The notes below the pieces were generated by a model, which saw only the letters and a list, made by a program, of their open reading frames with translations, was not told the DNA's origin and searched no databases. From a virus (Duplodnaviria; Caudoviricetes), in IMG/VR virus record IMGVR_UViG_2841255697_000002, positions 1 through 64,000 of that record: a DNA stretch of 64,000 nucleotides. One strand, given 5' to 3'. Position 1 is the stretch's first letter. The number at the start of each line of letters is the position of its first letter. The position numbers were made by a program, and so were the translations under genes. Below are positions 7,052 through 48,521 of the stretch, piece by piece.

Positions 7052-9129
7052 TATTTACCTCCTAGATTGTAATTTTTGGGATGCTCTTCATAGACTGGGC
7101 CGCCAAAATCATATGCATAAACATAGACATTCCAACCTTTTAAATTGGCCAACAAAACTTGCTCATCTGAAAACTGTTTTGCACCAGATAAGTAAATACT
7201 TCCTGTACCTCGTGGGCCTTCCTTAAGCGAATTCAATATACTACCGAAATTTTTATCCCAAATAAACTGACAGTCCCAATTAACATTTACAGTTTCGATA
7301 ATTAGTTTTGCAAATATATTTGTGACGGATGAAGTACCAAATGGAACAAGACGCATTTCGTTACAAATGATGGTCTTAAGATTGGTACACCCAATAAATG
7401 TTCTAGAGGAAGGACGTAGGGAACCTTCGAAGATTATAGTTTCTAAAGATACACAATTTGTAAAAATACTTCTGTCTGTTGGGCCGTTGAATGTAATGAC
7501 GTTAATTGTCTTTAATTCAGAACAGCCGCTAAAGAAATCGTCAATTGTGGATACTGTTGAGGCATTTATATTACCAACAGCTTTCAAATGAATACAGTTA
7601 CAAAAAAAGTTGTGAGCACTTTCAATAGATACAAGGTCAACATTTCCAATGTATTCTAAATTCTCACAACTTTCAAAAAAAGAATTTGCTTCTTTAAAGT
7701 TACCAAGATAAATAGTGCCTGTTTCTTTTAATGATTTACAATTTGAAAAAAAATGATCAACACTTACCTTATAAGCAACATCGTTTTGATAGCCTGTAAA
7801 TAGAAGATTACCAACGGATATTAAGTTTTCACATCCTGAGAAAAATGAAGAAACGAGTCCAAACTCGCAATTCATATTTGAAACAGTTTTCAAGTTTACG
7901 CAATTTAAAAAGAAATTGCTGCAATTGCTTACAAGTTCCATTGAAATCTCTTTTACACTTTCAAGAGATGAACAGTTAGGGAAAAATGAAGAAACAGTAT
8001 CGCACCCTAAAATATGAATATTCCCAATAGTTTTTATGCCGCTACAGCCATAAAACATTGAGTTGCAATACCCATGATAATGAGTTTCAGTATTAAATGC
8101 AGCGCTTATATTGATGTTATTTAGCGATTCGATAGACTTACAACCTGAGAACATATGTGTCCCCAATGTTAGTTGTAAGTTTAATTGTTTTTTAAAGCTG
8201 CTTCCTAAATTTTTCAAGCTTGAACAATTATAAAACATTTTTAAAGCTGAAAGTTGCCATTTTTCATCGATTTCGTTAATCGTTTCCAAGTTGGTACATC
8301 CATTAAACATATAATCACAATTTGCAGAACTGCCAATATGTAGTTTGTTTATTTTTTTAAGATTAGTACAACCGGAAAACATACCTTCTGCATTAACAAA
8401 TGTTTGATCCAAGGATATATTTTCAATATATTCAAATGTTTTGCAGCTTTCAAACATTGATCCAAAATTTTCACAAACAGGAAAAGAAAAAGATTTAATC
8501 GATTTTAATTTTACACATTGTCTAAATGCATTTTTAGCGTTTATTACATTTGGTGCAATAACATTTCCTACTTTTTTTAAACGAGTTGCCAACCAAAATG
8601 CATTGTCAAAATTTTTACAGTTTGGCAATATAATGTCACCAACGTATTCTAAACTTTCAATATTCTGAAACGCCCCCGATGACTCATACATTCCATAATT
8701 GCCAAAAGTTTTCATTTCTATAAAATTAATATATTCTACACTAAATACAGTATTATCATAAATGTACTGCTTTGTTACTTCGTTATAATTTGCAAAACAA
8801 AAATATGCAATAGGTCCAGTGATAATTATTGTATATTCTTTGTTAGGAACGTAGGTATGCGTAAGGTTTTGTCTAACACTTTTGTCAAAATACAATGTTG
8901 ATCCATCACCCCAGTCAACAATAATTGGCTCTGAAGAAGAACTACTACTATTTAAATAGATTAAAGTAGTTGGATTATCTGAAGTGGGTCTTACCACAAA
9001 AACTCCAGTATTTTCATTATAGTTTGGTCCACTCGGAAATACTTTTCGCCCATTTATATAACCCGATTCCATTCTCCGATCATTAACCATAATTTCAGAA
9101 ATCTCACGCCCGTTACAAGCTATTGCCAA
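7051..9129 (-). CDS. BspA/DUF285-like LRR tail protein with PKD-like N-terminal domain (692 aa)
   Basis: IIVDWGDGS...HTY...Y.I.I.G PKD-like motif then about 18 FxxCxxLxxIxxI repeats; ends LANLKGWNV. Confidence 0.7.
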   Translation of the reverse strand: MAIACNGREISEIMVNDRRMESGYINGRKVFPSGPNYNENTGVFVVRPTSDNPTTLIYLNSSSSSSEPIIVDWGDGSTLYFDKSVRQNLTHTYVPNKEYTIIITGPIAYFCFANYNEVTKQYIYDNTVFSVEYINFIEMKTFGNYGMYESSGAFQNIESLEYVGDIILPNCKNFDNAFWLATRLKKVGNVIAPNVINAKNAFRQCVKLKSIKSFSFPVCENFGSMFESCKTFEYIENISLDQTFVNAEGMFSGCTNLKKINKLHIGSSANCDYMFNGCTNLETINEIDEKWQLSALKMFYNCSSLKNLGSSFKKQLNLQLTLGTHMFSGCKSIESLNNINISAAFNTETHYHGYCNSMFYGCSGIKTIGNIHILGCDTVSSFFPNCSSLESVKEISMELVSNCSNFFLNCVNLKTVSNMNCEFGLVSSFFSGCENLISVGNLLFTGYQNDVAYKVSVDHFFSNCKSLKETGTIYLGNFKEANSFFESCENLEYIGNVDLVSIESAHNFFCNCIHLKAVGNINASTVSTIDDFFSGCSELKTINVITFNGPTDRSIFTNCVSLETIIFEGSLRPSSRTFIGCTNLKTIICNEMRLVPFGTSSVTNIFAKLIIETVNVNWDCQFIWDKNFGSILNSLKEGPRGTGSIYLSGAKQFSDEQVLLANLKGWNVYVYAYDFGGPVYEEHPKNYNLGGK

Positions 9130-25822: not shown

Positions 25823-27436
25823 CTAACGTCTATGGACAAGCGGTGCAATGAGTTGACTTTCTTCCTTGTTGAACTTTTCGTCAGCCAACAGCTGTATCCC
25901 GTATAAGCCCATTCCCATCGCAGACCAGCGGTCTTTTCGTTTGGACGTTGTTTTAAATTGCATCCAGCCTCCGCTTGTCCCTTTTGTTTCAATACTTAAG
26001 ATTTCTTTTCGTGCGTCTTCAGATTCTAAAAGTAGTACAGACTCTTCGCTCGAAAGATCCCTTTTTTCTTCAACCTTCATGGGGTACATGTGTAACCAGT
26101 TTTTCTCAACAAAAACCTTTACGGCAAATCCGAAACGATGGTTTAACTCAACGCATGGTTTCAATCCATATATAATCGGTACGCCATTTGTCGTATCGAT
26201 CCTTTTCATTGCCGTTTCGTCATTACGATCAATAAGTGGTGGATACCACTTTTGTTCTTCTACGGAAAAGTAATCCTTTGCAAGTTCATCCGCAAGGGCA
26301 GTACCGATAGTCATTGTATCCATATAAATATCGGTTATTTGTGGAAATTTCATTAAAATACCCCTTACGTTGCAAGCCTGTTTTCCAAATTCCATACCAT
26401 TAAGCGAACGAATGTAGACAAGATCAGCCTCAACATGCTGGGAAAACCAGTGGAGCTTAAAGACGTAAATGATCGTATTATCTTGTCCTTCAGAACGTGC
26501 AACGTCAACAGACATAATATATTGAAAGTTTGCAATACCTTTTGTTTCAATATGATCAAGATCAGCGCAATTTTGAAGAAGATTAAAATCAATAAACGCA
26601 CCTTCGGCAAGCTTAGGAAATTCGGCTAAATATTCTTGTTGGAATTGGAAATCAGACATAACAGCTCTTTGTTGCTTAACAATTTCCTCGTCAAAAAGTT
26701 GACATCGAATACCAGTACGGTAATCAAGATCCATGGCAAAATATTGAGTATTGTTAGGCTCTGCCATTCGCTTAAAATAATCAACCATTAATTCATAAAG
26801 ATGATTGAAGCGATAAGATGCAGTCGAACACATTAACACTTTATTTCCTTCGTAGTCATCCATGTTTTTTCCAACTTCATAGTCACGTCTGCAAATTAAC
26901 ATTGGCTTAATAACGGCATCAATGATATCTTTATCGACATATGCGGCTTCATCAATGAGCACAATGTGAAGACGCGCGCCTCTTACACGTGCACCATCTG
27001 AACCGATTGGAAACCCTTCAATCCAAGAGCCACAATAAAATTCGACTTTTGCCCGCTGGGTGCTACAAACGAAATCAGACACTTCGGCGGCTAACGCAGG
27101 AGACATGTTACAAAGCTCATCATGAAATTTTTCCTGAATATCAATTTTGGCCTGTCTAAAAGCTGGCGCAATAATACCAGCTTTTGTTCCGGGATATAGA
27201 AGGCAATAAACAACTAGACAGAGCACACCCATAAAAGATTTACCGAGTCCACGGCTCATAACAATGTTGGAAAAAGAGAAACGGAAAAAAGCGCGAATGA
27301 TAACTTTTTGATAAATGTTAAGAGAAATACCAAGATATTCTTCACAAAAAACATCAGGATACTGACGGTAATAGCTAACACTTTCTAAGTAAAGTCTTTT
27401 TTTATTTCTGACAGCTTTTGAATCTTCAACACTCAT
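25823..27436 (-). CDS. terL: terminase large subunit
   Basis: Walker A-like SRGLGKS, GARVRGAR, Walker B IVLIDEAA, nuclease SVDVAR, IYMD and KDRWSA motifs. Confidence 0.92.
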   Translation of the reverse strand: MSVEDSKAVRNKKRLYLESVSYYRQYPDVFCEEYLGISLNIYQKVIIRAFFRFSFSNIVMSRGLGKSFMGVLCLVVYCLLYPGTKAGIIAPAFRQAKIDIQEKFHDELCNMSPALAAEVSDFVCSTQRAKVEFYCGSWIEGFPIGSDGARVRGARLHIVLIDEAAYVDKDIIDAVIKPMLICRRDYEVGKNMDDYEGNKVLMCSTASYRFNHLYELMVDYFKRMAEPNNTQYFAMDLDYRTGIRCQLFDEEIVKQQRAVMSDFQFQQEYLAEFPKLAEGAFIDFNLLQNCADLDHIETKGIANFQYIMSVDVARSEGQDNTIIYVFKLHWFSQHVEADLVYIRSLNGMEFGKQACNVRGILMKFPQITDIYMDTMTIGTALADELAKDYFSVEEQKWYPPLIDRNDETAMKRIDTTNGVPIIYGLKPCVELNHRFGFAVKVFVEKNWLHMYPMKVEEKRDLSSEESVLLLESEDARKEILSIETKGTSGGWMQFKTTSKRKDRWSAMGMGLYGIQLLADEKFNKEESQLIAPLVHRR

Positions 27437-28269
27437 ACAGCCACCTCATCAGCAAAATGCCATTTATACCCGTATGCATGTTTATGTTTTCCAAGACATA
27501 CGCTGCTGATATTTGAACTTGAAGATGCCCCAACTGAAACAGCAGCGTCTTTAATGCTTTTGTGGTATGCAATAATCAAATTACTGTCAAGATCAATTTG
27601 ATAAACTGGACGTACCCTCTTCTTTTCTTTTTTCATGGCTTCAACAATGTCTTCAGAATAATCTTTTTCAAAGACCCAACGATAACCTTTTACACTTTTG
27701 CATTTGCCATAACAGGATTTTGAAATATTTGCAGCGCATGAACCAACGGTTTGTGCTGCTTCATGAACAGATGAAAATTTATTGATAATTGAAAAATCAT
27801 CTTTATTAAGCTGCAAAACAGCCTTTTTATAGTTAGAATGAGATTCGGAAAGTTTTTTCCTTGTTTCCTCACTCCAATGGACACCATAGTTAGGATGGTT
27901 TATACCGTTGAACCTGCCTACCAATGAGTCGGAAATTTTCTTCTTTGTTTGTTCAGACCAAACCTCACCATATGTTCCACCTAATTGTATATTGTAACCG
28001 TGGCTCGGATCGGTGGATTTATAAAGAGCAATGTATTCGCGTTCCTTTTTCTCGGCATCTTCAAAAGACAAACCTTCTTCTAAAACAGTCTGTTTAAAAG
28101 CATCCCACCCATAAATATCGATGTCAGCTCGTAGACTTTTATTTGAATAAGATTTTCCCCGCTTCCAACGTTGGGATAAGGGCATCGATGTCATTCCAAT
28201 ATAACGAAGACCCGTTGGACTTTCGAGCATATAAATTTTAAATTTTCTATTTTTATTAACTTTTCCTAT
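27433..28269 (-). CDS. free-standing GIY-YIG homing endonuclease with NUMOD3 and two NUMOD1-like domains
   Basis: KIYML...RYIGMT..L.QRW, GYNI..GG, SEETRKKLS, two F/H.S...AA..VG....NIS..C.GK.K...GY.W repeats; start probably ATA 28269 (AGGAGG 8 nt upstream) rather than ATG 28290. Confidence 0.85.
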   Translation of the reverse strand: MGKVNKNRKFKIYMLESPTGLRYIGMTSMPLSQRWKRGKSYSNKSLRADIDIYGWDAFKQTVLEEGLSFEDAEKKEREYIALYKSTDPSHGYNIQLGGTYGEVWSEQTKKKISDSLVGRFNGINHPNYGVHWSEETRKKLSESHSNYKKAVLQLNKDDFSIINKFSSVHEAAQTVGSCAANISKSCYGKCKSVKGYRWVFEKDYSEDIVEAMKKEKKRVRPVYQIDLDSNLIIAYHKSIKDAAVSVGASSSSNISSVCLGKHKHAYGYKWHFADEVAV

Positions 28270-29105
28270 GACAACATCCTCCTTGCACATTCAATATAAT
28301 TGTCCATTAGCGCATCGATTTCATCCTTATCGTATTCACGTTTAGGTGGAATAAATTCACCATCTTTAACCAGTTTGTCCATCCAGACAGTAAATTTTGA
28401 TTGAGCAAACTCATCCCGTGCAGAGCGCTGTTTCTTAGTCCACTTCATACTTTCCAAGGTGCTTTGGATCAGTTCGGAGATCTTCTTTTCATCGTTAATA
28501 TTGACCTCCTTGCCCTTTGCCCGACAAGTATCAATGCGATGCGCTTCAATCTCCAATGAGAGCAGACGCTTTAGAGAAGTTCGGTCAGCGCCCTCATTTA
28601 TTTCATACAGATCCATATAGACCGCATAACGTCTGCGCAGGAACTCTCGCTCCAGTGGGCTAAACATATCGATCCAGGATAAGATTTCGTTGGCATATTT
28701 GTTTTCACCATCCTCACCGGCACTGTTCTGAAAATACTGTTTATAGATATCGTCCTGCTCACCCGATAAAGCGGTTCTTCTTAAAATATCCTCACCAATC
28801 TTCTTGTAACAGGGGAGGGAGATCAATTTAAAATACTGGCTTACCGGATCTTTTATAGCGTTTCCTCTGGGAAGTACTTTTTTTCGTTCTTCAGTGCCAT
28901 CAGGATTTATCACAATCTCATATTTTTCAGGGGTTTCCTTTGTTTTATTGGCCTCAGCTTTCTCAACCGCCTTTGTCCAGCATTCTTCAACAAACGGAAG
29001 CTCAGAATCTGGGTGGGCCAGCAGATAAGTCATTAAATCCTCTTTTGTCTTTATATCGTCTGGACGATTCCGGCGGTTAGCAGTTTTCTTTTTTCTTTCC
29101 GCCAA
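28266..29105 (-). CDS. putative terminase small subunit
   Basis: Upstream of TerL; helical C-half; TTG start behind AAAGGA; assignment by synteny. Confidence 0.45.
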   Translation of the reverse strand: MAERKKKTANRRNRPDDIKTKEDLMTYLLAHPDSELPFVEECWTKAVEKAEANKTKETPEKYEIVINPDGTEERKKVLPRGNAIKDPVSQYFKLISLPCYKKIGEDILRRTALSGEQDDIYKQYFQNSAGEDGENKYANEILSWIDMFSPLEREFLRRRYAVYMDLYEINEGADRTSLKRLLSLEIEAHRIDTCRAKGKEVNINDEKKISELIQSTLESMKWTKKQRSARDEFAQSKFTVWMDKLVKDGEFIPPKREYDKDEIDALMDNYIECARRMLS

Positions 29106-29130: not shown

Positions 29131-29152
29131 TAAAAAAAGACCTTAGTGGTCT
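29131..29152 (-). terminator. probable intrinsic terminator
   Basis: Minus strand AAGACC-actaa-GGTCTT followed by a T run. Confidence 0.5.
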
Positions 29153-30078
29153 TAGTTTAGGCAATAAATTTTTGAAGCGTTCACATCAAACTGTCTTTCG
29201 TTGAACACGGCAATGGCGTATCCGGGATTTTGAGGGGTATATCCAAGCTTTCCCCCTGATGCGTAAGGCATATCTTTTGCGAGACACCCGATCTCATAGC
29301 ACCATTTGTTTAAATTCGGCAGTTTTTCGATAATTTTGTGCGTATGGCCGATCATAACCGCATTAAAAACAAATCCGTTTCTGGTAAAATACTCACAGGC
29401 GTTTGATACGGTTCGGCCTGGGATTTTTGAAAAGCCACTTGGATGTGCGATAATCAAGTCATTAAGCTGCATATGCCACTGATCAATGACCTCATAGTCT
29501 AAACCAGAATAGACAGTTGTCTGACCAAGCCGATGGTCGTGTTTTTGAAAACCACCGATAATCTCCTGTAAAATATTCGAACTATGAAGCGGATTCAGAC
29601 TATTATCATAGGTTGCCAGGTATTTCACGAATCGTTCTTCATGGTTACCATAAATCACATAACGCTTTACGCCAGGGGTTAAATCCTCGATAGCCTTTAA
29701 AACAGAATGCGCAATCACCATTTCATCAATCAATGGAATTTTGCCAAGCTCTTTGAATTTTGAAATACTTTCACAGTCTACACAATCACCAGCGATAACA
29801 AGTGTGTCAATCTCCTTTGCGTGTGATTTGACAATCTCCAGAATGTCATCCCGATGATAGGGAATATGTAAGTCTGACAAAATCAGACATTTTTCTTGTG
29901 TGTTATCCTTTTTGGACTTCCTAGGTTTAGACCGTTTAATAATCTTTCGAATACAATCATCCGTTACCATGATATTATACTGCCCATGGACATAGAGAGA
30001 AATCTCGTGATAAGAGAACCCAGCCTCCCCAAGTTCCAGAATCTCCTTGCGCTGTTCATCATTAAAATTCTTTTTCAA
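29152..30078 (-). CDS. calcineurin-like metallophosphoesterase with N-terminal HTH-like segment
   Basis: SDLHIP, GDCVD, GNHEER, H and GHTH motifs. Confidence 0.88.
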   Translation of the reverse strand: MKKNFNDEQRKEILELGEAGFSYHEISLYVHGQYNIMVTDDCIRKIIKRSKPRKSKKDNTQEKCLILSDLHIPYHRDDILEIVKSHAKEIDTLVIAGDCVDCESISKFKELGKIPLIDEMVIAHSVLKAIEDLTPGVKRYVIYGNHEERFVKYLATYDNSLNPLHSSNILQEIIGGFQKHDHRLGQTTVYSGLDYEVIDQWHMQLNDLIIAHPSGFSKIPGRTVSNACEYFTRNGFVFNAVMIGHTHKIIEKLPNLNKWCYEIGCLAKDMPYASGGKLGYTPQNPGYAIAVFNERQFDVNASKIYCLN

Positions 30079-30952: not shown

Positions 30953-31002
30953 TAAAAATAAACAGAGTTGCCAAGAAAGAAGAAAAATGATTTAATCGAG
31001 AA

Positions 31003-31031
31003 TTGACATTCTGTAAAGTATATGATATAAT
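31003..31031 (+). promoter_or_regulatory. consensus sigma-A promoter, rightward
   Basis: TTGACA-17 nt-TATAAT with TG extension. Confidence 0.85.
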
Positions 31032-31075
31032 TTATGGTATAAAGCGACTAAAAAAACAAAGATAAGGAGTCTAAA

Positions 31076-32074
31076 ATGAATGATTTAACAGTTGACAACA
31101 GAAATGCGGTTAAGAATGGCAATTTTTGTTATTCTGAAGATTACACGAGAACACTATCGAGCAGTACACGGAAAATGTATACGATGGAGATTATGAAGTT
31201 CTTCGATGTAGAGAGATTTGAAGAAATAACGGTAGAGCAAATTCAGGCCGTTACACCTGAGTGTGCGAACAGATGGGTTGAAGAGCTGGCTGAAGACGGA
31301 ATAAAAAAATCAACAATCAACAAGAAGCTGGCCGCCATGCAAAATTTCTATAAATTCCTTTGCAGAAGAAGCGTCGGTCTTATGTCCTATAATCCATTTA
31401 GCACCGACGAGGGTTGCATAAGGTTCAAAAATACCGCTTCGCAAGCAAAAACAAGATTTCCTCTCGAAGTTGAGGATATTGAAAATATGATTGATGCGGT
31501 GCCTAAACAATGTAAGACCAAAGCCCAAGAATTAATCTATACAAGAGATAGGCTGATTCTTCAAGTTCTATTTCTTACAGGAATGCGGCGTGAAGAGCTG
31601 TGTAGACTAAAGGTTGGAGATGTACAAGGATACCAGAGCAAATATGTTGTTTATGTTATTGGCAAAGGAGAGAAGGGACGACACCTTGAAATTCCAAAGA
31701 AGACATTTGAAGGTATTAGTGAGTACCTTGAGATGCGTGGCCTTACCTTTCACAATTTTGATGAGCCATTATTCTCCAGCCATGCGAGGAATGTTTCGTC
31801 AGGAAAACTCTCAGGAGCAACAATTAACCAATTGGTTAAAAAATATGCAGAATTAGCTGGGATAGACCCTGACAGGGTTTCGCCGCATGTATTCAGACAT
31901 ACATTTTGTACAGAGAGTCTCAGAATCCCTGGCATCACCGAAACTGATGTCCAAGATTTAATGGGACATGCAGACATTAGAACATTACGAATTTATGACC
32001 ATATTGATCGAACCATTGAGCATTCCACAGCGGAAATTTTGGCTGAAAAAATTCATATAGGTAAGTCAAAATAA
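31076..32074 (+). CDS. XerC/D-like tyrosine recombinase/integrase
   Basis: TGMRREEL, GKG.K.R, SPHVFRH, MGH, RIY: full catalytic set. Confidence 0.92.
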   Translation: MNDLTVDNRNAVKNGNFCYSEDYTRTLSSSTRKMYTMEIMKFFDVERFEEITVEQIQAVTPECANRWVEELAEDGIKKSTINKKLAAMQNFYKFLCRRSVGLMSYNPFSTDEGCIRFKNTASQAKTRFPLEVEDIENMIDAVPKQCKTKAQELIYTRDRLILQVLFLTGMRREELCRLKVGDVQGYQSKYVVYVIGKGEKGRHLEIPKKTFEGISEYLEMRGLTFHNFDEPLFSSHARNVSSGKLSGATINQLVKKYAELAGIDPDRVSPHVFRHTFCTESLRIPGITETDVQDLMGHADIRTLRIYDHIDRTIEHSTAEILAEKIHIGKSK

Positions 32075-32396
32075 AAAATCGCATGAAATGACGCATATTC
32101 GAGTTTAATTCAGCAAACCCTAATAAGGTTACCTAAAAAATGATTTCTCGTCAATTAGATACCATTTTGCTCGAAAAACGACCATTTCGAATGTATGTTT
32201 GATGTGCGTTTTCAGGAGTTGCAAGAATTACATAGCAAAATAACGCTATTTATGGAGTGGAGAATAGAGCAGAGATCAATTGAGAATATCCAGACAAAAA
32301 TGACCAAATCAAGGAGATACTTTAGCACATTACATCATTATGGGTAAGCCTTATACCCCTTATTATTATATATTAATATATTAATTAATTATATAT

Positions 32397-32541
32397 ATAT
32401 TTATATATTCACTACGTTCATATATAAATATTTTAGTGGTGTTAAAAATTTAGGGTAATTCATGGAAATATAATTAAAAACAATAATCCTGTTATATGAG
32501 TCCTGGTATAAAGACATTATTCACTGCGTTCATAATGTCTT
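32397..32541. repeat. two hairpins with unrelated stems and the same 11-nt loop TCACTRCGTTC
   Basis: 12-bp stem 32397-32408/32420-32431 and 10-bp stem 32511-32520/32532-32541. Confidence 0.8.
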
Positions 32542-32636
32542 ACTCGCTTTGTTTTCCTGTCGGAAAAGGCAAAGCTCATAATATAGGCCGACAAGAGAAT
32601 AATTAGTGTCCAGATAATGATACGAACTCTTAACGT

Positions 32637-32663
32637 AAGATCACCTTCGTGTGGTCTTTTTTT
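32637..32663 (+). terminator. intrinsic terminator
   Basis: AAGATCAC-cttcgt-GTGGTCTT then T run. Confidence 0.65.
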
Positions 32664-33099
32664 ATTGCCTGGAATAGAATAATCAAATCAATGAACAGGA
32701 ACAACAGAAAAGGCCAACTGGAGAAATAACGTACAAGGATTGTTTGAATTAGTCAAAATATGAAAAGAGTAACGATTAAGTAGGTTTAAGCAAAAAATAC
32801 TATTATAAGATGAAGTTTTGAAAGAAGAGTATCAGATTAGGTTAAATCAGGTCTGGAATGAAAGATAATTTAGGAGAAAAGCAATACAATAAAAGTTAAC
32901 TAAGAGCAGAAATTAAGGGCCAAAAATTTTTTGACGAAAGCTTTGAAAGCCAGTAAAAATATAGGTTGTAGTGTAAGGTACCCCCGGCCTGGAAAAGAAA
33001 GAAAACAATGTTTCATTTTAGTAAACACCTCTGGTAAATCTATAGACAATATTTATACTTTACAGAAGTACTGTTCTATCAATGGTAAAATGAAATTTA

Positions 33100-33560
33100 A
33101 CGCATTTGATTATATTTATAAATAAAATTATGTTAAAAGAGAGATTAATTTATTTATTGAATACATATAATAATATTCAATATTATATGTATTAATGTAA
33201 TTACATAATGACAAATAAAGTTGTCAAAATCAATATATTACAAATGTAATATATAATTACATATGTCACATGCTATTACACATGTAATACTTGAATAATA
33301 TTTAATACATATATATTTAATGTGTCATAAAATCCTTAAGTATAACAAATGAGTATAAACGTTATTAATTAACTTGATATATATAATATATTACAATTAC
33401 TTATTGTTGGAATATGACTAATTGCTTTATTAAATTGCATTATTCACTATATTAATAGTAATTATGATATTCTTAATATATTTACATATAAGAATATACA
33501 ATAATACACATATCATAATACATTAAATATAATTAACAATCATATATACTTCACATAACT
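33100..33560. other. extremely AT-rich non-coding tract (candidate origin or genome-end region)
   Basis: No ORF; visibly almost only A/T with recurrent TTACA/TGTAA words. Confidence 0.45.
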
Positions 33561-33724
33561 AAAGCAACCTTTTCTGATCTAAAATTAAAAGCCTTATATC
33601 GCTTATTAAAGGCATATAAGGAAGGCTTTATAATAACCGAACATTAGCGAACGTTTTCTTAAATTGCTGAAAACCGCATAGATAGGGGATTTAAAAGATA
33701 AATAAAAAAATAGAAAATAACGTG

Positions 33725-33754
33725 TTGACATAATGGTTTTTTACGTGCTACAAT
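33725..33754 (+). promoter_or_regulatory. early promoter
   Basis: TTGACA-18 nt-TACAAT with TG extension and upstream A-tracts. Confidence 0.7.
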
Positions 33755-33759
33755 ATAGA

Positions 33760-34295
33760 CACCGAAAGGGACAAGCCCTTGAGAGTGGACAAGCGGGTCC
33801 GATGTACAAAAGCCAACGCCAAAAAAAGGCGGTGAAAATTTCTTGACAAAACAAGTAAAAATTATCGGTTAAAGTTTTCCACATTTCTTAGAAAAAATGT
33901 GAGATAGGAAAACCTATTGTGTAATACAGGTTTTAAAAGTGAAGCCCTGTATTAACCCCAAAGCAGTAAACAGCTTTAACTTTGTATTATGGATAACCAG
34001 TACAAAGGCTTAAATAGGACACCTTGAAAAAGGCGGTATTTGACAAATGAATATCTGTATATTGGACGGATTGACAACCCGGAAAATATGACAGACAGGG
34101 TATTAAGCTAGTATCCTGAATAAAGCACAAAAGTGCAAAGGCCGTTTATACCAACGTAAAAAGGTACACAAAACAAAAGTTAATCCCATTGTGTAGAGGA
34201 TTTAAAGAATAGTACACAATGTTTTACCAGTTTTCAAGGCTGGATTCCAAAAACTGGACACCAAAGGGCATTTTTAAAAGTGTTTTTTGGTGTAG
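33760..34295 (+). ncRNA. candidate large structured RNA or leader
   Basis: No credible ORF; more than a dozen consecutive hairpins, several with G-U pairs that form only on the plus strand. Confidence 0.55.
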
Positions 34296-34450
34296 GGAAA
34301 TAACATATTTTTTTACAAAGTTTAAAAGTAACGTGTTGACATTAGAGTTTTTGTCTTTTGGAAAGCAGACAATAAAGAACTTTATCCGGGTGCAAGGTCT
34401 AGTATTCAAAAATCCCCCTGATACTCAAACTATCGAGAGGGGGTGAGAAA

Positions 34451-34567
34451 ATGCTGGATAAGGTTTTAAACTTGTTGGATAGACTTTTAAAGTTTTTGAC
34501 AACAAAAAAACGACCTATGATCGCTATTCACATTAGCATTAAGGTCGTTATAATCCGCAAGCGATAA
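34451..34567 (+). CDS. candidate type I toxin peptide (38 aa)
   Basis: MLDKVLNLLDRLLKFLTTKKRPMIAIHISIKVVIIRKR; GAGGGGG RBS paired with upstream CCCCCT; antisense promoter downstream. Confidence 0.55.
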   Translation: MLDKVLNLLDRLLKFLTTKKRPMIAIHISIKVVIIRKR

Positions 34568-34582
34568 GCTAAAATCCTTGCA
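34503..34582 (-). ncRNA. candidate antisense antitoxin RNA
   Basis: Minus-strand TTGCAT-16-TATAAT (34615-34588); AACGACC/GGTCGTT hairpin plus T run ending near 34504. Confidence 0.5.
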
Positions 34583-34638
34583 CCTTTATTATACCACGTT
34601 TGATAAAAAATGCAATATAGAAAGTTGAGGACAACAAA

Positions 34639-34857
34639 ATGAAATGGGAGCTAATACATGAATGGAGTCCCGATGATGTAGACCCGACATGCTGGGCTAT
34701 AGAAATTAACAGTGCAGAATACGGGGATTATATTTGGATAACAGAAATGCCAAAAGGCTATGTGGTTGAATACCGTGAAGGAGATTCTTGTATAGAAATT
34801 ATTGCTTTTAAGACGCTTCCAGATGCTCAAGAATGGGTTGGGCATTGGCTGTTTTAA
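34639..34857 (+). CDS. small acidic hypothetical protein
   Basis: GAGGA RBS, 72 aa, Trp-rich. Confidence 0.6.
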   Translation: MKWELIHEWSPDDVDPTCWAIEINSAEYGDYIWITEMPKGYVVEYREGDSCIEIIAFKTLPDAQEWVGHWLF

Positions 34858-34875
34858 AACAAGGGAGAAACCACA

Positions 34876-35055
34876 ATGAAAAAAGAACGATTAACGAAAA
34901 TCGAAAAAGAGCAAATTAAAGAATATGCAATTGCACATTCAAACGCGGCATGTGAGTACGCAATTCATGAGAGTTTAGAGCGTGACGAATGTTTTTATTG
35001 GCTGGAATATGTTAGAGCTAATGAAAAGCTATTTAGATATATTGATTCATTATAA
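34876..35055 (+). CDS. hypothetical protein (59 aa, below ORF-track cutoff)
   Basis: AAGGGAG RBS; MKKERLTKIEKEQIKEYAIAH... Confidence 0.55.
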   Translation: MKKERLTKIEKEQIKEYAIAHSNAACEYAIHESLERDECFYWLEYVRANEKLFRYIDSL

Positions 35056-35071
35056 AAGGAGAGTAACAAAA

Positions 35072-35359
35072 ATGGATGAAAACAGGATGCAGTTTATTTT
35101 AAACAAGCTAGAAGAATTTGAATTTACTCTTGATCTGTTGGAGGCGGATATAAAAAGTGTAGGCAAGGTAACACTTGCTGGTTCCCTTATAGAGGCAAGC
35201 AGCATAAACGGGTATGCACTTGCCCTTACAGCGGAAACATACTTATACATAAAACAAAGGGTTCCGTTTTTAGAAGACATTAATGGTCGTATTACAGAAG
35301 TTGAAATACGTTCTAGACGCTTATGCGGGGCTTTGGCATCGGGGTTAATAGCATGTTAA
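35072..35359 (+). CDS. hypothetical protein
   Basis: Start moved to ATG 35072 behind AAAGGAG. Confidence 0.55.
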   Translation: MDENRMQFILNKLEEFEFTLDLLEADIKSVGKVTLAGSLIEASSINGYALALTAETYLYIKQRVPFLEDINGRITEVEIRSRRLCGALASGLIAC

Positions 35360-35561
35360 CGTTTGCACAAGGTTTTATTTCTGGTATAGCGGCATTGTAT
35401 GCGGTATGGCTATTTAAAGAAGCCTACAAATAAAAAGAAGCCTCTAACGATTGCGGCGGTAGAGGCTGAGTGTAACGGCACGGCCAAAACAAGAAAAAAG
35501 GCCATATGTTACAAGAAAATAATAACATATGGCCTCTAAAAAGGAAAGAGGTTAATAAAAA

Positions 35562-36077
35562 ATGAAGAGAGAAAAAATAAGAGAACAAGAAAACTGGATT
35601 TTAGAGCGTGAAGAAAAATATCGGTATATGCTGTTATCTCGTATGCAAATGGATTGCGAATATTTTCTAGGGTATGGGAATAGATATGAAGGCCACTTAT
35701 GGGCCTTAAAAGTAGAGGATCAGATTCATTACATGCGATTTATATTAAATTCATTCAGTGATGATGAAAAACCGGACTGGATAACAGCGGAACAGATAGA
35801 TCAATTTGAGAAAGAGATGTTAGCAGGTGAGAGAATACGGGACACCTTTTACCATAATCGAGGCGATGAGGCTTGCTATAAGGACTGTTTCGGCTATTTG
35901 GGTTATATGACCGCAGATAGCGTTAAAAAAATAAAAGAGAAAAAAGAGGCTTATGAAAAAGAGCTAGGCACTGAATATGACCTGTATAACAGCGATAACC
36001 AGTATAAAGAAGGCTATATTGAATCGGCCGAAAGGTTGATCACGTATTATAAAGAATGCACTTCAGAGGAGGCGTAA
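35562..36077 (+). CDS. LPD11 (large polyvalent protein-associated) domain protein
   Basis: Y.YMLLSRM..DC.Y.LG.G......LWA......I..M......F....KP.W.T...I..F...M. Confidence 0.75.
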   Translation: MKREKIREQENWILEREEKYRYMLLSRMQMDCEYFLGYGNRYEGHLWALKVEDQIHYMRFILNSFSDDEKPDWITAEQIDQFEKEMLAGERIRDTFYHNRGDEACYKDCFGYLGYMTADSVKKIKEKKEAYEKELGTEYDLYNSDNQYKEGYIESAERLITYYKECTSEEA

Positions 36078-36079
36078 AA

Positions 36080-36481
36080 ATGAAGTCATATTTACAACAT
36101 GCTGGATACCTTGAAATCAAGAATTTTATCGGTAAACAACACGATTGGCGGGGTTATATCTGGTATCCAGAAATTGTGACAAAAACAGATGATTCATTGG
36201 TAATCTGTTTGAATACCGATGAATATTCCCATAATTTTGAAGATTCATTATATGTACTCTATGAAGCCTTAATGGAAAAAGATGTTTATCTTGAGTCTGA
36301 ATCCGGTAGAGATTGGCTAATTGACTACAATAGAGGTCAACTTGTTTATGGGTTTATAACCTATTGTGATCCTATGAGGGAATTATGGGAAATGCTAATA
36401 GACGAAGGTGGATTTATATCATTTGAATATTGGACTAAAGAAGAAAGTGAAGAAATTATTGATGGTTTGAAATATGAATAA
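36080..36481 (+). CDS. acidic hypothetical protein
   Basis: ATG 36080 behind GAGGAGG. Confidence 0.6.
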   Translation: MKSYLQHAGYLEIKNFIGKQHDWRGYIWYPEIVTKTDDSLVICLNTDEYSHNFEDSLYVLYEALMEKDVYLESESGRDWLIDYNRGQLVYGFITYCDPMRELWEMLIDEGGFISFEYWTKEESEEIIDGLKYE

Positions 36482-36649
36482 GTGTCAATTTTCCGGTATT
36501 CCAAAGAGTGCCGGAACATGGGCATTTACCCCAAAAGCGACTAAGAAAGAAGGAAGTGTGATGGATTTTATAACTGGATTCATGTTTTGTCTTGGTGTTG
36601 AATATTTAGTTTGGATTGTTAGAGAAATTAATAAATGTGAGGTGGAGAA

Positions 36650-37177
36650 ATGATTGAATTAAGAGGATATTTAACGAATCTCGAAAAATATAACGAGGGT
36701 GAATTGATAGGAGAATGGGTAACATTCCCAATTGACGAGGACGAACAAGACGAGATTTTTAAGAGAATAGGCATAAAGAATGAATATGGAGAATATTTCC
36801 TTGAATATTTCTTTACTGATTATGAATGTGATGTTCCCAGTGTATGTGATGATCTGGCGGAGTATTCCAGTATTGATAATTTTAATGACTTAGCTGAAGC
36901 TTTAGAAAGTGTTGATGATGAGGACTTGTTAGCGGCTGCTATAGAACTCGGCGGGTATGATGTCATGGATATTATAGAAAACATCGACGATTACTCGTTA
37001 CGTACAGATATAAATAACGATTATGACTTAGGTTATGAGTATATAGTTGAAGGCTGTGCTTTGGATACTCCAGATTATCTTGAAAATTACATTGATTATG
37101 AGGCGTTTGGGCGTGACTTAAGAATGGACTTATACGGTGCTTTTACGGACTGGGGATGGGTGGAAAGAGTAGGATAA
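36650..37177 (+). CDS. ardA: antirestriction protein ArdA
   Basis: YLTNL.KYNEG.L.GEWV.FP, EYF.TDYE, YIDYEAFGRDL; very acidic. Confidence 0.92.
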   Translation: MIELRGYLTNLEKYNEGELIGEWVTFPIDEDEQDEIFKRIGIKNEYGEYFLEYFFTDYECDVPSVCDDLAEYSSIDNFNDLAEALESVDDEDLLAAAIELGGYDVMDIIENIDDYSLRTDINNDYDLGYEYIVEGCALDTPDYLENYIDYEAFGRDLRMDLYGAFTDWGWVERVG

Positions 37178-37189
37178 GGAGATCAAGTC

Positions 37190-37471
37190 ATGATAACAAT
37201 AGAAGTATCAAAATATAACGTGGATGTATATGATACCGATTTTGAGCGGAATGGATACAAATACTATGCAATAAGAATAACTGAGTTTAACGGGAATGAC
37301 AAAGAAATAGGCAATAACCTAGTCTATGTGATAGATTTTCCCAATAATGACACCATTGAAAAAATCAAACGTTACTGCGTTGATATTGATAATATTGATT
37401 ATTTAATGTTACTGCCTAAAAATACAACAATAAAGTTAGTAGATCGAATATACGCAAAAATTGTTTATTAA
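37190..37471 (+). CDS. hypothetical protein
   Basis: AAGGAG RBS. Confidence 0.55.
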   Translation: MITIEVSKYNVDVYDTDFERNGYKYYAIRITEFNGNDKEIGNNLVYVIDFPNNDTIEKIKRYCVDIDNIDYLMLLPKNTTIKLVDRIYAKIVY

Positions 37472-37546
37472 TGCGTTTTAGATGAGGGCTTTGCGGAGCC
37501 TTCTCTAAAGGGTATTGTCCTAAATTAAGGAAAGAAGGGGAAGGTA

Positions 37547-38101
37547 ATGAAATTTCAAACGAATACTGACATATTGAAGTTACTAGATGCTGGATTGTAT
37601 GAAAGTTATTTAGGTAGAATCGTATATGGTGAAGATAAACTTGAAAAGGTTGAGCAAAATCTAAAGGTAGTCGAAAATGAAGCATTAAGACTTTTAAATG
37701 AGTTATTTCTAGAATTACCGTTTAAAGCCGTTTTAAGTAATCCACAATATTGGCATCCTAAATTCTACAACTATGAAACTGACTGTATTTTGTTCGATAT
37801 AGAAGTGGACGAAAATTTCCTCGACAAGTATGTGAGCGAAAGACTGGATTATCGGTTTTATAACTTTATTTTTCAACATTACTGTTCATATGATGGATTT
37901 CTTAGTTTTTATCCATATACCAAAGAAGAATTCCATAATGTTTTTAAAAGCGAACATAAGTATAAATGCGTCAATCAAGTTATTACTTACTACATTGCCT
38001 GTGAAGTTTGGGAGAGTAAAGATATTACGGCAGCGTATCAGTTTGACAATCTGCAATGGGATTTCATAGAAAATGTGTATGAAAAAATAGAATTCATTTA
38101 G
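37547..38101 (+). CDS. hypothetical protein, acidic and aromatic
   Basis: W.PK.YNY.TD and SYDGF.SF motifs recalled from early phage proteins. Confidence 0.6.
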   Translation: MKFQTNTDILKLLDAGLYESYLGRIVYGEDKLEKVEQNLKVVENEALRLLNELFLELPFKAVLSNPQYWHPKFYNYETDCILFDIEVDENFLDKYVSERLDYRFYNFIFQHYCSYDGFLSFYPYTKEEFHNVFKSEHKYKCVNQVITYYIACEVWESKDITAAYQFDNLQWDFIENVYEKIEFI

Positions 38102-38112
38102 GAGGTCAAATC

Positions 38113-38355
38113 ATGAAAGAAGCAGTAGAAAGAACAATTAAAGTGCCTGTTTTATGGATGATGTATGGAGAAATAGAGCTGGACATTCAAGTTGATGAAA
38201 ATGCAGATGAAGAGGAGATTTTAGACAAAGTTTTCAATGAGTTTTATGATCATTATAAGGATATTCCTTTGCCTGAAGGTTATTATTTAGAGGATTCTTT
38301 CGAACTAAACATAGATGAAGAGAATGCTGACTTTTTAGAATTTTATAACAAATAA
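38113..38355 (+). CDS. very acidic small protein
   Basis: AGGAGGT RBS; IPLPEG.YLEDSFE. Confidence 0.65.
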   Translation: MKEAVERTIKVPVLWMMYGEIELDIQVDENADEEEILDKVFNEFYDHYKDIPLPEGYYLEDSFELNIDEENADFLEFYNK

Positions 38356-38488
38356 AATAGCCGCCAATAAGGAGCACCGGCGGCCAACAAATCACTGAAC
38401 GAACAATACAAAAGCGACTAAGTAAGGAGTCAGTGACCTGTAAACCTATTATAACAGGCCGCTTTGATAAAAACAAGGAGAGAAAAAA

Positions 38489-39199
38489 ATGGAATGTGCA
38501 TTAATTGAAAGATATATTGAAGATGGATATAACCCCTGTGGACTTGACGGTGAGCCTGTGCCAATGATTTTCAACAAATTGGCCTATCCTGGAGAAATTC
38601 AGGAGGTTGTTACAGATGAGGTTGTGATTTTTGATAAACAAGACTACCTGGAAGTCCAGAAACGGTGTGAAACGGAAGATGTTTTAGATTTAATGAAAGA
38701 ATTCGGGGAGTTATTTTATGAGTACGACGATTTGTTTTTAGACAATGTAAATCAAGATGATGTGATTTTTTACATAGGAGAATGGGCTGATCCAATATCT
38801 GATATTGTCACGAATGACTTCATAGCAAAAGAAGATTTGAATACACATGATTACCTTAGATATTGGAGTGATGGTCATTGGGAAACACAATGGATTGAGG
38901 GCAGGACCGATCTTGAAGTTGAAACAGATTATTTTAATCTGGATCGCTGGAACGGCAGTAATAAGGAGTTTCATAGTGTTGGACATCATGCGCGAGTATA
39001 TCGGATTCAAACAATTGACGGTGAACCTGTTAAAAATAAGTACCTCGTAGAACTTTGGAGCCAATGGCAAGGGGAAGAACTGAGCGATGGCTGTATTATG
39101 AATGAAGAAGAACTGCACCAATACTTTACAATAAATTTTAGAGACTATGAGCAAGAATGGCAGGAATTTTTAGAATTTGATTGCCAGGGGGAAGTTTGA
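38489..39199 (+). CDS. acidic hypothetical protein
   Basis: AAGGAG RBS; WSQWQG motif. Confidence 0.65.
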   Translation: MECALIERYIEDGYNPCGLDGEPVPMIFNKLAYPGEIQEVVTDEVVIFDKQDYLEVQKRCETEDVLDLMKEFGELFYEYDDLFLDNVNQDDVIFYIGEWADPISDIVTNDFIAKEDLNTHDYLRYWSDGHWETQWIEGRTDLEVETDYFNLDRWNGSNKEFHSVGHHARVYRIQTIDGEPVKNKYLVELWSQWQGEELSDGCIMNEEELHQYFTINFRDYEQEWQEFLEFDCQGEV

Positions 39200-39565: not shown

Positions 39566-39635
39566 CATCGGTTAGCTCAAGGCCGGTAGAGCAGACTGTA
39601 AAGTCAAGATAATGGTTCAAATCCATTACCGATGA
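39566..39635 (+). tRNA. tRNA-like RNA with truncated anticodon arm (Tyr-like GUA)
   Basis: Acceptor CATCGGT/ACCGATG, D GCTC/GAGC, T AATGG-TTCAAAT-CCATT; anticodon arm only 12 nt (GACT-GTAA-AGTC); no encoded CCA. Confidence 0.8.
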
Positions 39636-48419: not shown

Positions 48420-48521
48420 TTTTTTTTACATTGTTTAAAGATAACGTGTTGAATATTATGTTTTAAGGAGGAATGTCAAAACCAATGCAATATTTTAACA
48501 CTATACAAAAAGGAAGGGAAA

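What the first reader, a model, noticed from the sequence alone, without database searches (positions are those of the whole stretch)
33725..34300. About 550 nt of densely structured non-coding sequence at the start of the early transcript
Behind a strong promoter and before the first early gene there is no credible ORF, but an almost continuous run of helices. Examples: AAGGG/CCCTT, GGAC/GTCC, CGCC/GGCG, CACATTT/AAATGTG, TAATACAGG/CCTGTATTA (inside long-range GTTAAAG/CTTTAAC), CTTTGTATT/AGTACAAAG, CAGGGTAT/GTATCCTG, CATTGTGTA/TACACAATG, CCAGTTTT/AAAACTGG and a 16-bp stem at 34258-34293. Several imperfect pairs are G-U on the plus strand, favouring plus-strand RNA. The word ACAA recurs in or beside loops (GGACAAGC twice, TTGACAA three times, GCACAAAAGTGC). 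Hypotheses: a cis-acting processive antiterminator for the ~30 kb early operon (as with HK022 put, EAR or conAn), a protein-sponge RNA, or a new large phage ncRNA.
Basis: partly seen in the sequence, partly recalled or inferred. Interest (0 to 1): 0.72.

Follow-up and report, generated by a model that had tools for sequence, protein, structure and literature searches.

The report
Hairpin-rich leader before phage early genes
Behind the strongest early promoter of a temperate Amboise-like phage lies about 0.55 to 0.9 kb of gene-free, unusually hairpin-rich sequence that is probably a structured leader RNA, but it has no known relatives, so its job is still open.

Summary
Window 33755-34300 has no credible ORF. 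It lies directly behind a near-consensus promoter (TTGACA-18-TGcTACAAT). It folds far better than shuffles: z -6.08 on the plus strand and -3.90 on the minus strand, against a mean of -0.40 (sd 1.25) for 25 control windows. It holds 8 perfect hairpins of at least 7 bp, against 1.1 expected.

The structured zone runs on to about 34640 (880 nt, z -7.5). That extension encloses a 38-codon ORF with a sequestered ribosome-binding site and a possible antisense RNA.

One new feature emerged. The word GACA occurs 14 times on the plus strand, with 3.5 expected and 1 on the minus strand, mostly in unpaired positions.

The region matches no Rfam family. I found no homologue in GenBank phages, PLSDB, IMG/VR, metagenome contigs or 399 Bacilli genomes, so covariation could not be tested.

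Processive antitermination is poorly supported. The 30-kb operon has only four weak plus-strand terminator-like sites, and the leader has no rrn-type boxA and no terminator of its own.

My best reading is a plus-strand structured leader RNA of the early anti-defence operon that may also bind a protein. It is an orphan of moderate interest.

The parts
33703..33741 (+). First copy of a 39-nt repeat ending in TAACGTGTTGACAT. It overlaps the A/T-rich upstream region and the -35 box of the early promoter.
   Evidence: the repeat finder family D2, 77% identity to the copy at 34314-34352. The exact 12-mer AACGTGTTGACA occurs only at 33719 and 34330 in the window.
33725..33754 (+). Early promoter P1: TTGACA, an 18-nt spacer with TG, then TACAAT. 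The transcription start is inferred near 33761.
   Evidence: 11 of 12 consensus positions plus the TG extension; sequence read. The transcription start is inferred, not measured.
33755..34300 (+). The finding: an ORF-free, hairpin-dense stretch of about 15 helices. It includes two pairs of mutually exclusive hairpins: 33909-15/33928-34 versus 33922-30/33946-54, and 34165-71/34189-95 versus 34187-95/34213-21.
   Evidence: z -6.08. 8 perfect hairpins against 1.14 expected. No credible ORF. No Rfam match.
33823..33849 (+). Module copy 1: a small A-loop hairpin ending in AAAAAGGCGGT, followed by TTGACAA.
   Evidence: The 11-mer AAAAAGGCGGT is repeated exactly at 33823 and 34027. TTGACA is at 33843.
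34027..34046 (+). Module copy 2: AAAAAGGCGGT followed by TTGACAA. A third, looser copy (GGACGGATTGACAA) lies at 34063-34077.
34258..34293 (+). 16-bp hairpin with four G-U pairs, which would be C-A mismatches on the minus strand. No U-tract follows it directly.
   Evidence: Present in the MFE and centroid structures. Neither the terminator scan nor my relaxed scan called it a terminator.
34314..34352 (+). Second copy of the 39-nt repeat with TAACGTGTTGACAT, 611 bp after the first. It has no usable -10 box, so it is a possible operator or weak promoter.
   Evidence: Spacing and the missing -10 box were read. A looser third copy lies at 48421-48454.
34388..34585 (+). Closed domain formed by the long-range helix GGGUGCAAGG/CCUUGCACC around a 38-codon ORF (34451-34567). 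The ORF's GAGGGGGUGA ribosome site (34435-34446) pairs with UCCCCCU (34413-34419).
   Evidence: Fold of 34294-34640, z -4.63. The 200-nt window 34400-34599 has z -6.0. ORF listed. No family match for the peptide.
34500..34615 (-). Candidate antisense unit: TTGCAT-16-TGgTATAAT (34615-34588), then about 80 nt, then a terminator-like hairpin and T-run (34525-34500). It overlaps the 3' half of the 38-codon ORF.
   Evidence: Minus-strand sequence read. Terminator-like site listed. I found the promoter by eye and the scan did not list it; promoter-like sites are no commoner here than in shuffles.
34527..34554 (+). Second promoter-like site (TTCACA-16-TATAAT) just ahead of the first well-supported early gene.
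   Evidence: 11 of 12 consensus positions
34639..34857 (+). First well-supported early ORF (72 aa, GAGGA ribosome site). LPD11 (35562), ArdA (36650) and RtcB (40167) follow.

Best explanation
The stretch is the 5' part of a long, untranslated, highly folded plus-strand leader RNA of about 33761 to 34640. It is made from the strong early promoter P1 of a temperate, Amboise-like siphovirus, ahead of an early operon that opens with anti-defence genes (LPD11, ArdA, then tRNAs, drum RNA and RtcB).

I read it as a cis-acting leader. Its chain of local hairpins would protect and organise the first RNA made after infection. Between and on top of the hairpins it displays 10 to 14 mostly single-stranded GACA(A/C) words, which would serve as a landing pad for an RNA-binding protein that sets the stability, processing or translation of the early message. 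Its 3' part locks the ribosome site of a 38-codon ORF into a helix.

Shown: there is no ORF, the promoter is strong, the excess of structure is real, and the GACA array is strand-specific. Inferred: that the region is transcribed, that the structure forms in RNA rather than DNA, and that a protein binds the GACA words.
For: - Promoter: 11 of 12 consensus positions plus TG, directly upstream.
- Coding: no ORF with a usable ribosome site in 33755-34450 and no gene remnant by tblastx.
- Structure: z -6.08 for the 546 nt and -7.49 for 33761-34640, against a mean of -0.40 (sd 1.25) for 25 control windows.
- Hairpins: 8 perfect hairpins against 1.14 expected, with 0 of 500 shuffles reaching 8.
- Strand: the plus strand is favoured. 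23 G-U pairs against 15; energy difference -13.2 kcal/mol against -3.7 +/- 5.8 in shuffles; 7 of 120 shuffles as skewed. The 16-bp stem needs four G-U pairs.
- GACA: 14 copies in 33755-34640 against 3.54 +/- 1.74 expected, 0 of 2000 shuffles. Its complement TGTC occurs once. This is the richest of the 886-nt bins of the window (mean 3.6, sd 2.4).
- GACA sites are less paired than random 4-mers: unpaired probability 0.59 against 0.40, with 0.8% of random draws as high, or 1.4% against 4-mers with two A.
- No intrinsic terminator lies inside the leader, so a P1 transcript should run on into the early genes.
- Long leaders at the head of long mobile-element operons have precedent: the 456-nt pLS20 leader (PMC13401043, abstract) and the 452-nt Tn916 canT (PMC11658703, abstract and sections 16 and 21).
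Against: - No evidence of transcription was obtained.
- No homologue was found anywhere, so not one base pair is supported by covariation.
- The nearest sequenced relative, Amboise, has no comparable structured stretch at this position. The element is therefore lineage-specific or young.
- The hairpins are mostly perfect palindromes. They fold almost as well as single-stranded DNA (z -5.03) and still significantly on the minus strand. The strand preference alone is not significant (7 of 120).
- No protein that recognises GACA is identified.
- A second promoter-like site at 34527 could feed the early genes without the leader.
Confidence: 0.4

Rival explanations
1. It is a trans-acting stable non-coding RNA, a sponge or decoy. 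The first 0.55-0.9 kb of the early transcript would be cut out, for instance at the 16-bp hairpin, and accumulate. Its array of exposed GACA words would titrate a host RNA-binding regulator, nuclease or defence sensor before any phage protein exists.
For: - GACA array: 14 against 3.5 expected, 14:1 strand bias, mostly unpaired.
- It would be the first product of the strongest early promoter.
- The operon it heads is devoted to counter-defence: ArdA, LPD11, RtcB, tRNAs and drum RNA.
- A relative (L004) carries another large ncRNA, ROOL, at 228.6 bits, so this phage group does use big RNAs.
Against: - No terminator or mapped processing site defines a separate RNA.
- GGA words, the hallmark of CsrA-type sponges, are not enriched: 16 against 13.4, with 415 of 2000 shuffles as high.
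- No partner protein is known, no conservation is seen, and no expression data exist.
Confidence: 0.2
2. It is a cis-acting processive antiterminator RNA, working like HK022 put, EAR, pLS20 conAn2 or Tn916 canT. The nascent leader would bind RNA polymerase and make it resistant to terminators over the 30-kb early operon.
For: - Position and size fit. It is a folded leader of several hundred nucleotides at the start of a very long operon, like canT (452 nt; 341 nt still active) and the pLS20 leader (PMC11658703 section 16; PMC13401043 abstract).
- The operon contains untranslated stretches (tRNAs, drum RNA) that could expose it to Rho.
Against: - Almost nothing needs reading through. There are 4 weak plus-strand terminator-like sites in 34000-64000 against 32 on the minus strand.
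- No rrn-type boxA: the best score is 7.1 bits; the five real Bacilli sites printed score 31.4 to 33.9, and equal or better chance hits occur elsewhere in the window.
- No Rfam hit at E up to 10, and no blastn match in PLSDB plasmids.
Confidence: 0.1
3. It is a DNA-level element and the hairpins are incidental or act in DNA. Two operator-like copies of TAACGTGTTGACAT lie 611 bp apart (about 58 helical turns) and could loop the DNA to shut P1 in the lysogen. Alternatively, the palindromes and five extra TTGACA boxes could belong to a replication origin or a polymerase-loading zone next to the AT-rich palindrome array at 33140-33530.
For: - The 39-nt repeat has exact 12-mer cores at 33719 and 34330 and a looser copy at 48443.
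- TTGACA occurs 6 times on the plus strand in 33725-34501, and only the first has a -10 box. In 33755-34640 it occurs 5 times against 0.37 expected, 0 of 2000 shuffles.
- The structure is also significant with DNA parameters and on the minus strand.
- No repressor gene lies next to P1, unlike in Amboise.
Against: - Each hairpin has a different sequence, which is not what an array of sites for one DNA-binding protein looks like.
- Several stems need G-U pairs that exist only in plus-strand RNA.
- The 14:1 strand bias of GACA and its preference for unpaired positions are easier to explain in RNA.
- The replication genes lie 15-20 kb away.
Confidence: 0.15
4. It has no function of its own: a lineage-specific spacer or decayed sequence in a 2.4-kb gene-poor zone, with a palindrome content that reflects mutational or recombinational history.
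For: - It is an orphan sequence with no relatives.
- The relatives Amboise and L005 have a different arrangement at this position.
- The whole of 32075-34450 is gene-poor.
Against: - Excess structure at z -6 to -7.5, against a control sd of 1.25, and a 4-fold excess of one strand-specific word are hard to get by drift.
- Phage genomes rarely keep 0.9 kb of useless DNA behind their strongest promoter.
- No trace of a former gene was found.
Confidence: 0.1

Closest known systems
Tn916 canT (cis-acting antiterminator RNA; PMC11658703, abstract and sections 16 and 21 read)
   Same: It is a non-coding RNA of several hundred nucleotides (452 nt; 341 nt still active) with many predicted stem-loops at the head of a long mobile-element operon. 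It has no conserved family model, and its function cannot be read from the predicted fold.
   Different: canT is defined by read-through of mapped terminators T1-T3, whereas this operon has almost no plus-strand terminators. I made no direct sequence comparison with canT. blastn of the region against PLSDB plasmids found nothing, and I did not check that a Tn916 copy is in that collection.
pLS20 conjugation-operon leader: zipper-type attenuator cATT plus conAn (PMC13401043, abstract and outline read; PMC8191782, search listing only)
   Same: It is a 456-nt leader behind a strong promoter at the start of a >32-kb operon. It has a long imperfect stem-loop and competing alternative pairings.
   Different: The pLS20 attenuator ends in an intrinsic terminator just before the first gene, and an antitermination protein gene follows it. 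Here no terminator lies in the leader and no such gene was recognised. This element is in a phage, not a plasmid.
ROOL and GOLLD, the large structured RNAs of prophages (Rfam)
   Same: Size class (about 550-900 nt), phage context near tRNA genes in the same operon, and unknown function. A relative of this phage (L004) carries a true ROOL at 228.6 bits.
   Different: No match to ROOL, GOLLD or any of the 4227 Rfam models, even at E up to 10. The genomic position differs: it heads the early operon rather than sitting beside a tRNA in the late region. No conserved core can be shown.
Protein-sponge RNAs of the CsrB/RsmZ type (recalled, no paper read)
   Same: Many hairpins with one short word repeated in exposed positions.
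   Different: The repeated word is GACA, not GGA. GGA is at chance level. No binding protein is known.

Membership tests
Any Rfam 15 family (including ROOL, GOLLD and other large or phage RNAs) | Covariance-model match at the gathering score, or at least a weak match | tested here: not met
   The gathering-score scan of the whole window gave only 4 tRNA hits and drum RNA, none in 33700-34650. A permissive scan of 33200-34800 at E up to 10 gave 4 hits, all on the minus strand, with E 3.2 to 9.4, far below their cut-offs.
Processive antitermination elements in general (put, EAR, conAn2, canT, nut) | Intrinsic terminators inside the operon that the modified polymerase must read through | tested here: not met
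   Plus-strand terminator-like sites in 34000-64000 are 34822, 53992/53993 and 62313, all weak, against 32 on the minus strand. Rho-dependent sites cannot be predicted with these tools.
rrn-type or nut-type antitermination | A boxA element. In Bacilli rrn leaders this is TCTTTGAAAACTAA, matched at 11 or more of 14 positions in 23 of 24 leaders taken from 24 of the 30 loci returned. I left out L280 and L291-L295 (contig-end, fragment or second-copy hits). | tested here: not met
   A PWM built from the 23 sites scores 31.4 to 33.9 bits for the five real sites printed. The best site in the leader (34033) scores 7.1 bits. Elsewhere in the window chance sites reach 10.4 bits on the plus strand and 15.0 on the minus strand.
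Zipper-type attenuator (pLS20 cATT) | An intrinsic terminator directly upstream of the first gene, whose 5' arm can instead extend a long upstream stem | tested here: not met
   The standard scan and my relaxed scan found no hairpin plus U-tract in 33755-34640. A long stem (16 bp) and two pairs of competing hairpins do exist. The hairpin at 34187-34221 is followed only by UUUUACC.
canT / conAn2 | Sequence or structural homology to the described elements | tested here: inconclusive
   blastn of 33700-34450 against 72,556 PLSDB plasmids gave no match. I did not confirm that pLS20 or a Tn916 copy is in that collection and made no direct alignment. The supplementary structure figures could not be seen.
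CsrA-type sponge RNA | Excess of GGA words presented in hairpin loops | tested here: not met
   GGA occurs 12 times against 8.9 expected (221 of 2000 shuffles as high) in 33755-34300, and 16 against 13.4 (415 of 2000) in 33755-34640. Only some of the sites are unpaired.
Structured non-coding RNA (generic) | Base pairs supported by compensatory changes in homologues | not testable with these tools
   No homologue of the stretch could be retrieved. The closest terminase relatives (96% and 71% identity) exist only in assemblies whose DNA I could not fetch.
Structured non-coding RNA (generic) | Transcribed on the stated strand | not tested
   The index search listed four metatranscriptome runs as holding part of 33600-34700, with shares 0.07 to 0.21.

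The most novel reading that the evidence does not exclude
The first thing this phage makes on entering a cell is not a protein but an orphan folded RNA of about 0.9 kb. It displays some 14 exposed GACA words and soaks up or misleads a host RNA-binding defence or regulatory protein. That would be a new class of large phage RNA acting as an RNA-level counter-defence, at the head of an operon otherwise filled with protein and tRNA counter-defences.
Probability: 0.15. Interest if true: 0.8.

Novelty: new variant of a known kind. Interest (0 to 1): 0.45.

Why it matters
Long folded leaders at the head of very long mobile-element operons have only recently been shown to be active RNAs, as with the pLS20 attenuator and conAn, and Tn916 canT. 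None is described for a temperate phage of Bacilli or Clostridia.

If this leader is functional, it would show that such phages also invest their first several hundred transcribed nucleotides in RNA-level control or counter-defence. The GACA array would give a concrete handle for finding the partner protein.

As it stands it is a statistically solid but unconserved candidate from an uncultured phage. It is worth a look if RNA data or closer relatives become available, but it is not yet a discovery.

Tried and rejected
Homologue searches that found nothing useful:
- blastn of 33700-34450 against GenBank phages and PLSDB gave no match.
- blastn of 31000-38900 against phages matched only a 128-nt ArdA piece in C. 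difficile phages.
- An exact 33-nt hairpin pattern in IMG/VR gave 0 hits.
- Integrase, terminase and LPD11 proteins used singly in IMG/VR gave no relative.
- A terminase alignment retrieved relatives L004, L005, L006, L084, L085 and L086 at 44-60% identity. The integrase is syntenic in six of the seven loci searched, those six plus L003/Amboise, all but L085. None shows nucleotide similarity to the region (best E 0.025). L004 and L084 end before or at their early promoter.
- A promoter pattern in metagenome contigs returned 27 loci. Only 1 of 27 had any further similarity (L100, 51 nt), and that is an unrelated XRE-gene promoter.
- Two word patterns in IMG/VR returned 119+ and 30 loci, all chance matches.
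- blastn against 399 scored Bacilli-class genomes (2 more not scored) gave short AT-rich hits of 22-56 nt in 12 of 399.
- blastn against the whole records of Amboise, L004, L005 and L006 gave nothing.
- tblastn of the 72-aa first gene found nothing. LPD11 matched only distant phages.
- Earlier findings of this scan held nothing.

Expression:
- The look-up of sequencing runs listed 17 holders, 4 of them RNA runs with shares 0.07 to 0.21.
No expression, ends or variants could be read, and these shares are not used as evidence.

Ideas rejected:
- rrn-type boxA.
- Attenuator with a terminator.
- CsrA sponge.
- Pseudogene remnants.
- A structured region conserved by position in Amboise.

Ideas considered but untestable here: a ColE1 RNA II-like preprimer, P4-type RNA immunity, a Spo0A-box cluster and a Chi-site cluster.

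Full report
**Context**

The window is the first 64 kb of a 74-kb IMG/VR provirus record. Late and structural genes fill the minus strand from 1 to 30529, with the terminase at 25823-27436. A tyrosine recombinase sits at 31076-32074 on the plus strand. From about 34450 to the end, everything runs on the plus strand.

The early plus-strand block holds:
- LPD11 (35562), the anti-restriction protein ArdA (36650) and RtcB (40167)
- four tRNA-like genes and a drum RNA (40002-40106)
- antirepressor-type proteins, a DnaB-type helicase, a primase and a ribonucleotide reductase

The only named relative is Clostridium phage Amboise, an inducible prophage of [Clostridium] innocuum (passages of PMC10197239). 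Its integrase is 40% identical and its terminase 50% identical to those here, at the same map positions. Between the recombinase and the first good early gene lies a 2.4-kb gene-poor zone. The finding is the part of that zone that follows the early promoter.

- The promoter TTGACA-18-TGcTACAAT (33725-33754) matches 11 of 12 consensus positions.
- No start codon between 33755 and 34450 has more than a 4-5 nt Shine-Dalgarno match, and all frames are at most 24 codons. tblastx against the relatives shows no decayed gene.
- The 546 nt fold with z -6.08 as plus-strand RNA, -3.90 as minus-strand RNA and -5.03 as plus-strand DNA.
- Twenty-five control windows of the same length across the phage gave a mean of -0.40 (sd 1.25). 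The lowest, -3.72, was the adjacent window.
- A simple count of perfect hairpins (stem at least 7 bp) gives 8 against 1.14 +/- 1.09, with 0 of 500 shuffles reaching 8.
- In 200-nt steps, every window from 33700 to 34299 has z between -2.5 and -3.5 on the plus strand.

**The structured zone is longer than reported**

34294-34640 has z -4.63, and 33761-34640 as a whole has z -7.49 with 20 shuffles. In this 3' part a long-range helix (34388-34397 with 34576-34585) closes a domain around a 38-codon ORF (34451-34567). The ORF's strong ribosome site pairs with an upstream UCCCCCU.

On the minus strand there is an extended -10 promoter that I read by eye (34615-34588). A terminator-like hairpin with a T-run lies at 34525-34500. 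Together these would give an antisense RNA of about 80 nt over the 3' half of that ORF. This layout recalls type I toxin-antitoxin loci, but the peptide matches no family and is not clearly a membrane peptide. I record it only as a lead.

**New features**

GACA is the most over-represented 4-mer on the plus strand.
- It occurs 10 times against 2.3 expected in the finding and 14 against 3.5 in 33755-34640, with 0 of 2000 shuffles reaching either count.
- Its complement TGTC occurs once. This is the richest of the 886-nt bins of the window.
- The sites are less paired than random 4-mers: unpaired probability 0.59 against 0.40.
- They fall into subtypes: GGACAAGC twice, GACACC three times, and TTGACA(A) five times after the promoter's own copy.

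Other repeats:
- A small module, an A-loop hairpin ending in AAAAAGGCGGT followed by TTGACAA, occurs at 33823 and 34027, with a looser third copy at 34063.
- A 39-nt repeat ending in TAACGTGTTGACAT occurs at the promoter and again 611 bp downstream without a -10 box. A looser copy lies at 48421-48454.
- Two pairs of hairpins are mutually exclusive.

**Strand**

G-U pairs favour the plus strand (23 against 15). The energy difference is -13.2 kcal/mol against -3.7 +/- 5.8 in shuffles. However, 7 of 120 shuffles are as skewed, so this is supportive rather than decisive.

**What it is not**
- It matches no Rfam family, even at E up to 10.
- It has no rrn-type boxA. I took the box from 24 Bacilli rrn leaders, where it is nearly invariant (23 of 24). 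A PWM scores 31.4 to 33.9 bits for the five real sites printed but only 7.1 bits at best in the leader, no better than chance hits elsewhere in the window.
- It contains no intrinsic terminator, so it is not a classical attenuator.
- The operon it heads has only four weak plus-strand terminator-like sites in 30 kb, against 32 on the minus strand. A processive antiterminator would have little to do, unless Rho is the target, which I cannot predict.
- GGA words are at chance level, so it is not a CsrA-type sponge.

**No relatives**

Nothing similar turned up in any search I could run:
- GenBank phages and PLSDB
- IMG/VR
- metagenome contigs
- 399 Bacilli genomes
- the full records of the relatives

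The relatives retrieved through the terminase (44-60% identity) keep the recombinase in place. However, they either end before their early region (L004, L084) or, like Amboise and L005, have a different arrangement there with small minus-strand genes and no comparable structured stretch.

Much closer relatives do exist, with terminase 96% and 71% identical, but only in assemblies whose DNA I could not fetch. An index search listed 17 public runs that hold part of the stretch, four of them metatranscriptomes. I therefore have neither covariation nor expression evidence, and these are the two main gaps.

**Most likely explanation**

My best reading, at about 0.4, is a cis-acting, plus-strand, structured leader of the early transcript. 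I infer that it stabilises and organises the first RNA of infection and carries a GACA landing pad for a protein. Its 3' part controls a small ORF.

Rivals:
- the same RNA acting in trans as a sponge or decoy (0.2)
- a DNA-level reading: operator looping between the two repeats, or an origin next to the AT-rich palindrome array (0.15)
- a processive antiterminator (0.1)
- no function (0.1)

The closest known things by way of working are the Tn916 canT RNA and the pLS20 leader (PMC11658703 abstract and sections 16 and 21; PMC13401043 abstract). Membership in those or any other family is either not met or untestable. I could not see the supplementary figures of those papers, which show the canT folds.

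**Verdict**

This is a genuine, statistically strong, ORF-free, hairpin-dense stretch in a meaningful position, with a new strand-specific word array. It remains an orphan without evidence of conservation or transcription. I rate it of moderate interest.

Noticed in passing
window 34388-34615: A 38-codon ORF (34451-34567) sits inside a closed RNA domain with its ribosome site sequestered. A possible 80-nt antisense RNA with a promoter and terminator on the minus strand overlaps it. The layout resembles a type I toxin-antitoxin locus. The peptide matches no family.
   Followed up: partly
window 40002-40106: A drum RNA (Rfam RF02958, 53.1 bits) lies between tRNA-Ile(TAT) at 39879 and the RtcB ligase gene at 40167. 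tRNA-Gln and tRNA-Trp lie at 41391 and 41472. A fourth tRNA-like hit at 39566-39635 was seen by Rfam only, not by ARAGORN.
   Followed up: no
L004 5804-6366: The closest IMG/VR relative by terminase (60% identity) carries a full-length ROOL RNA (228.6 bits) followed by a tRNA. It lies between the homologues of the window's genes at 29152-30078 and 28266-29105. The window has only a 46-nt gap there.
   Followed up: no
window 33140-33530: A very AT-rich zone (GC about 25%) lies 200-600 bp upstream of the early promoter. It holds several palindromes built on TGTAAT/ATTACA: 33195-33207, 33236-33251, 33251-33263 and 33274-33289. These could be operators or origin repeats.
   Followed up: no
window 32406-32422, 32518-32534, 33441-33457; L003 about 8308-8325 and 8350-8362: The word TATTCACTACGTTCATA is repeated downstream of the recombinase gene and recurs in the same place in phage Amboise. 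It is a candidate recombinase arm site or attP region.
   Followed up: no
window 48421-48454: A third, looser copy of the T-run plus TAACGTGTTGA repeat sits in the 48-nt gap after the gene ending at 48419. A better start (ATG 48468 with AAGGAGGA) may exist for the ORF listed from 48522.
   Followed up: partly
window 35400-35599: The intergenic stretch before the LPD11 gene folds with z -4.85 on the plus strand and -7.08 on the minus strand in a 200-nt window.
   Followed up: no
window 38358-38386: A strong 12-bp terminator-like hairpin lies on the minus strand inside the plus-strand early operon.
   Followed up: no
window 44868-45239 and 46292-47260: The only sizeable minus-strand ORF in the early block (123 aa, no family) lies between a Rha/ANT antirepressor gene and a Bro-N gene and could be the repressor. 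The ORF at 46292-47260 gives a weak integrase-family match (phrog_1, E 3.4e-10).
   Followed up: no
L084 1-60 (minus strand): A Bacilli MAG prophage related by terminase (56% identity) ends its contig right after a strong promoter (TTGACA..TAGAAT). The promoter is followed by G/C-rich hairpin-like sequence with GACA words, so a similar leader may exist there but is cut off.
   Followed up: partly
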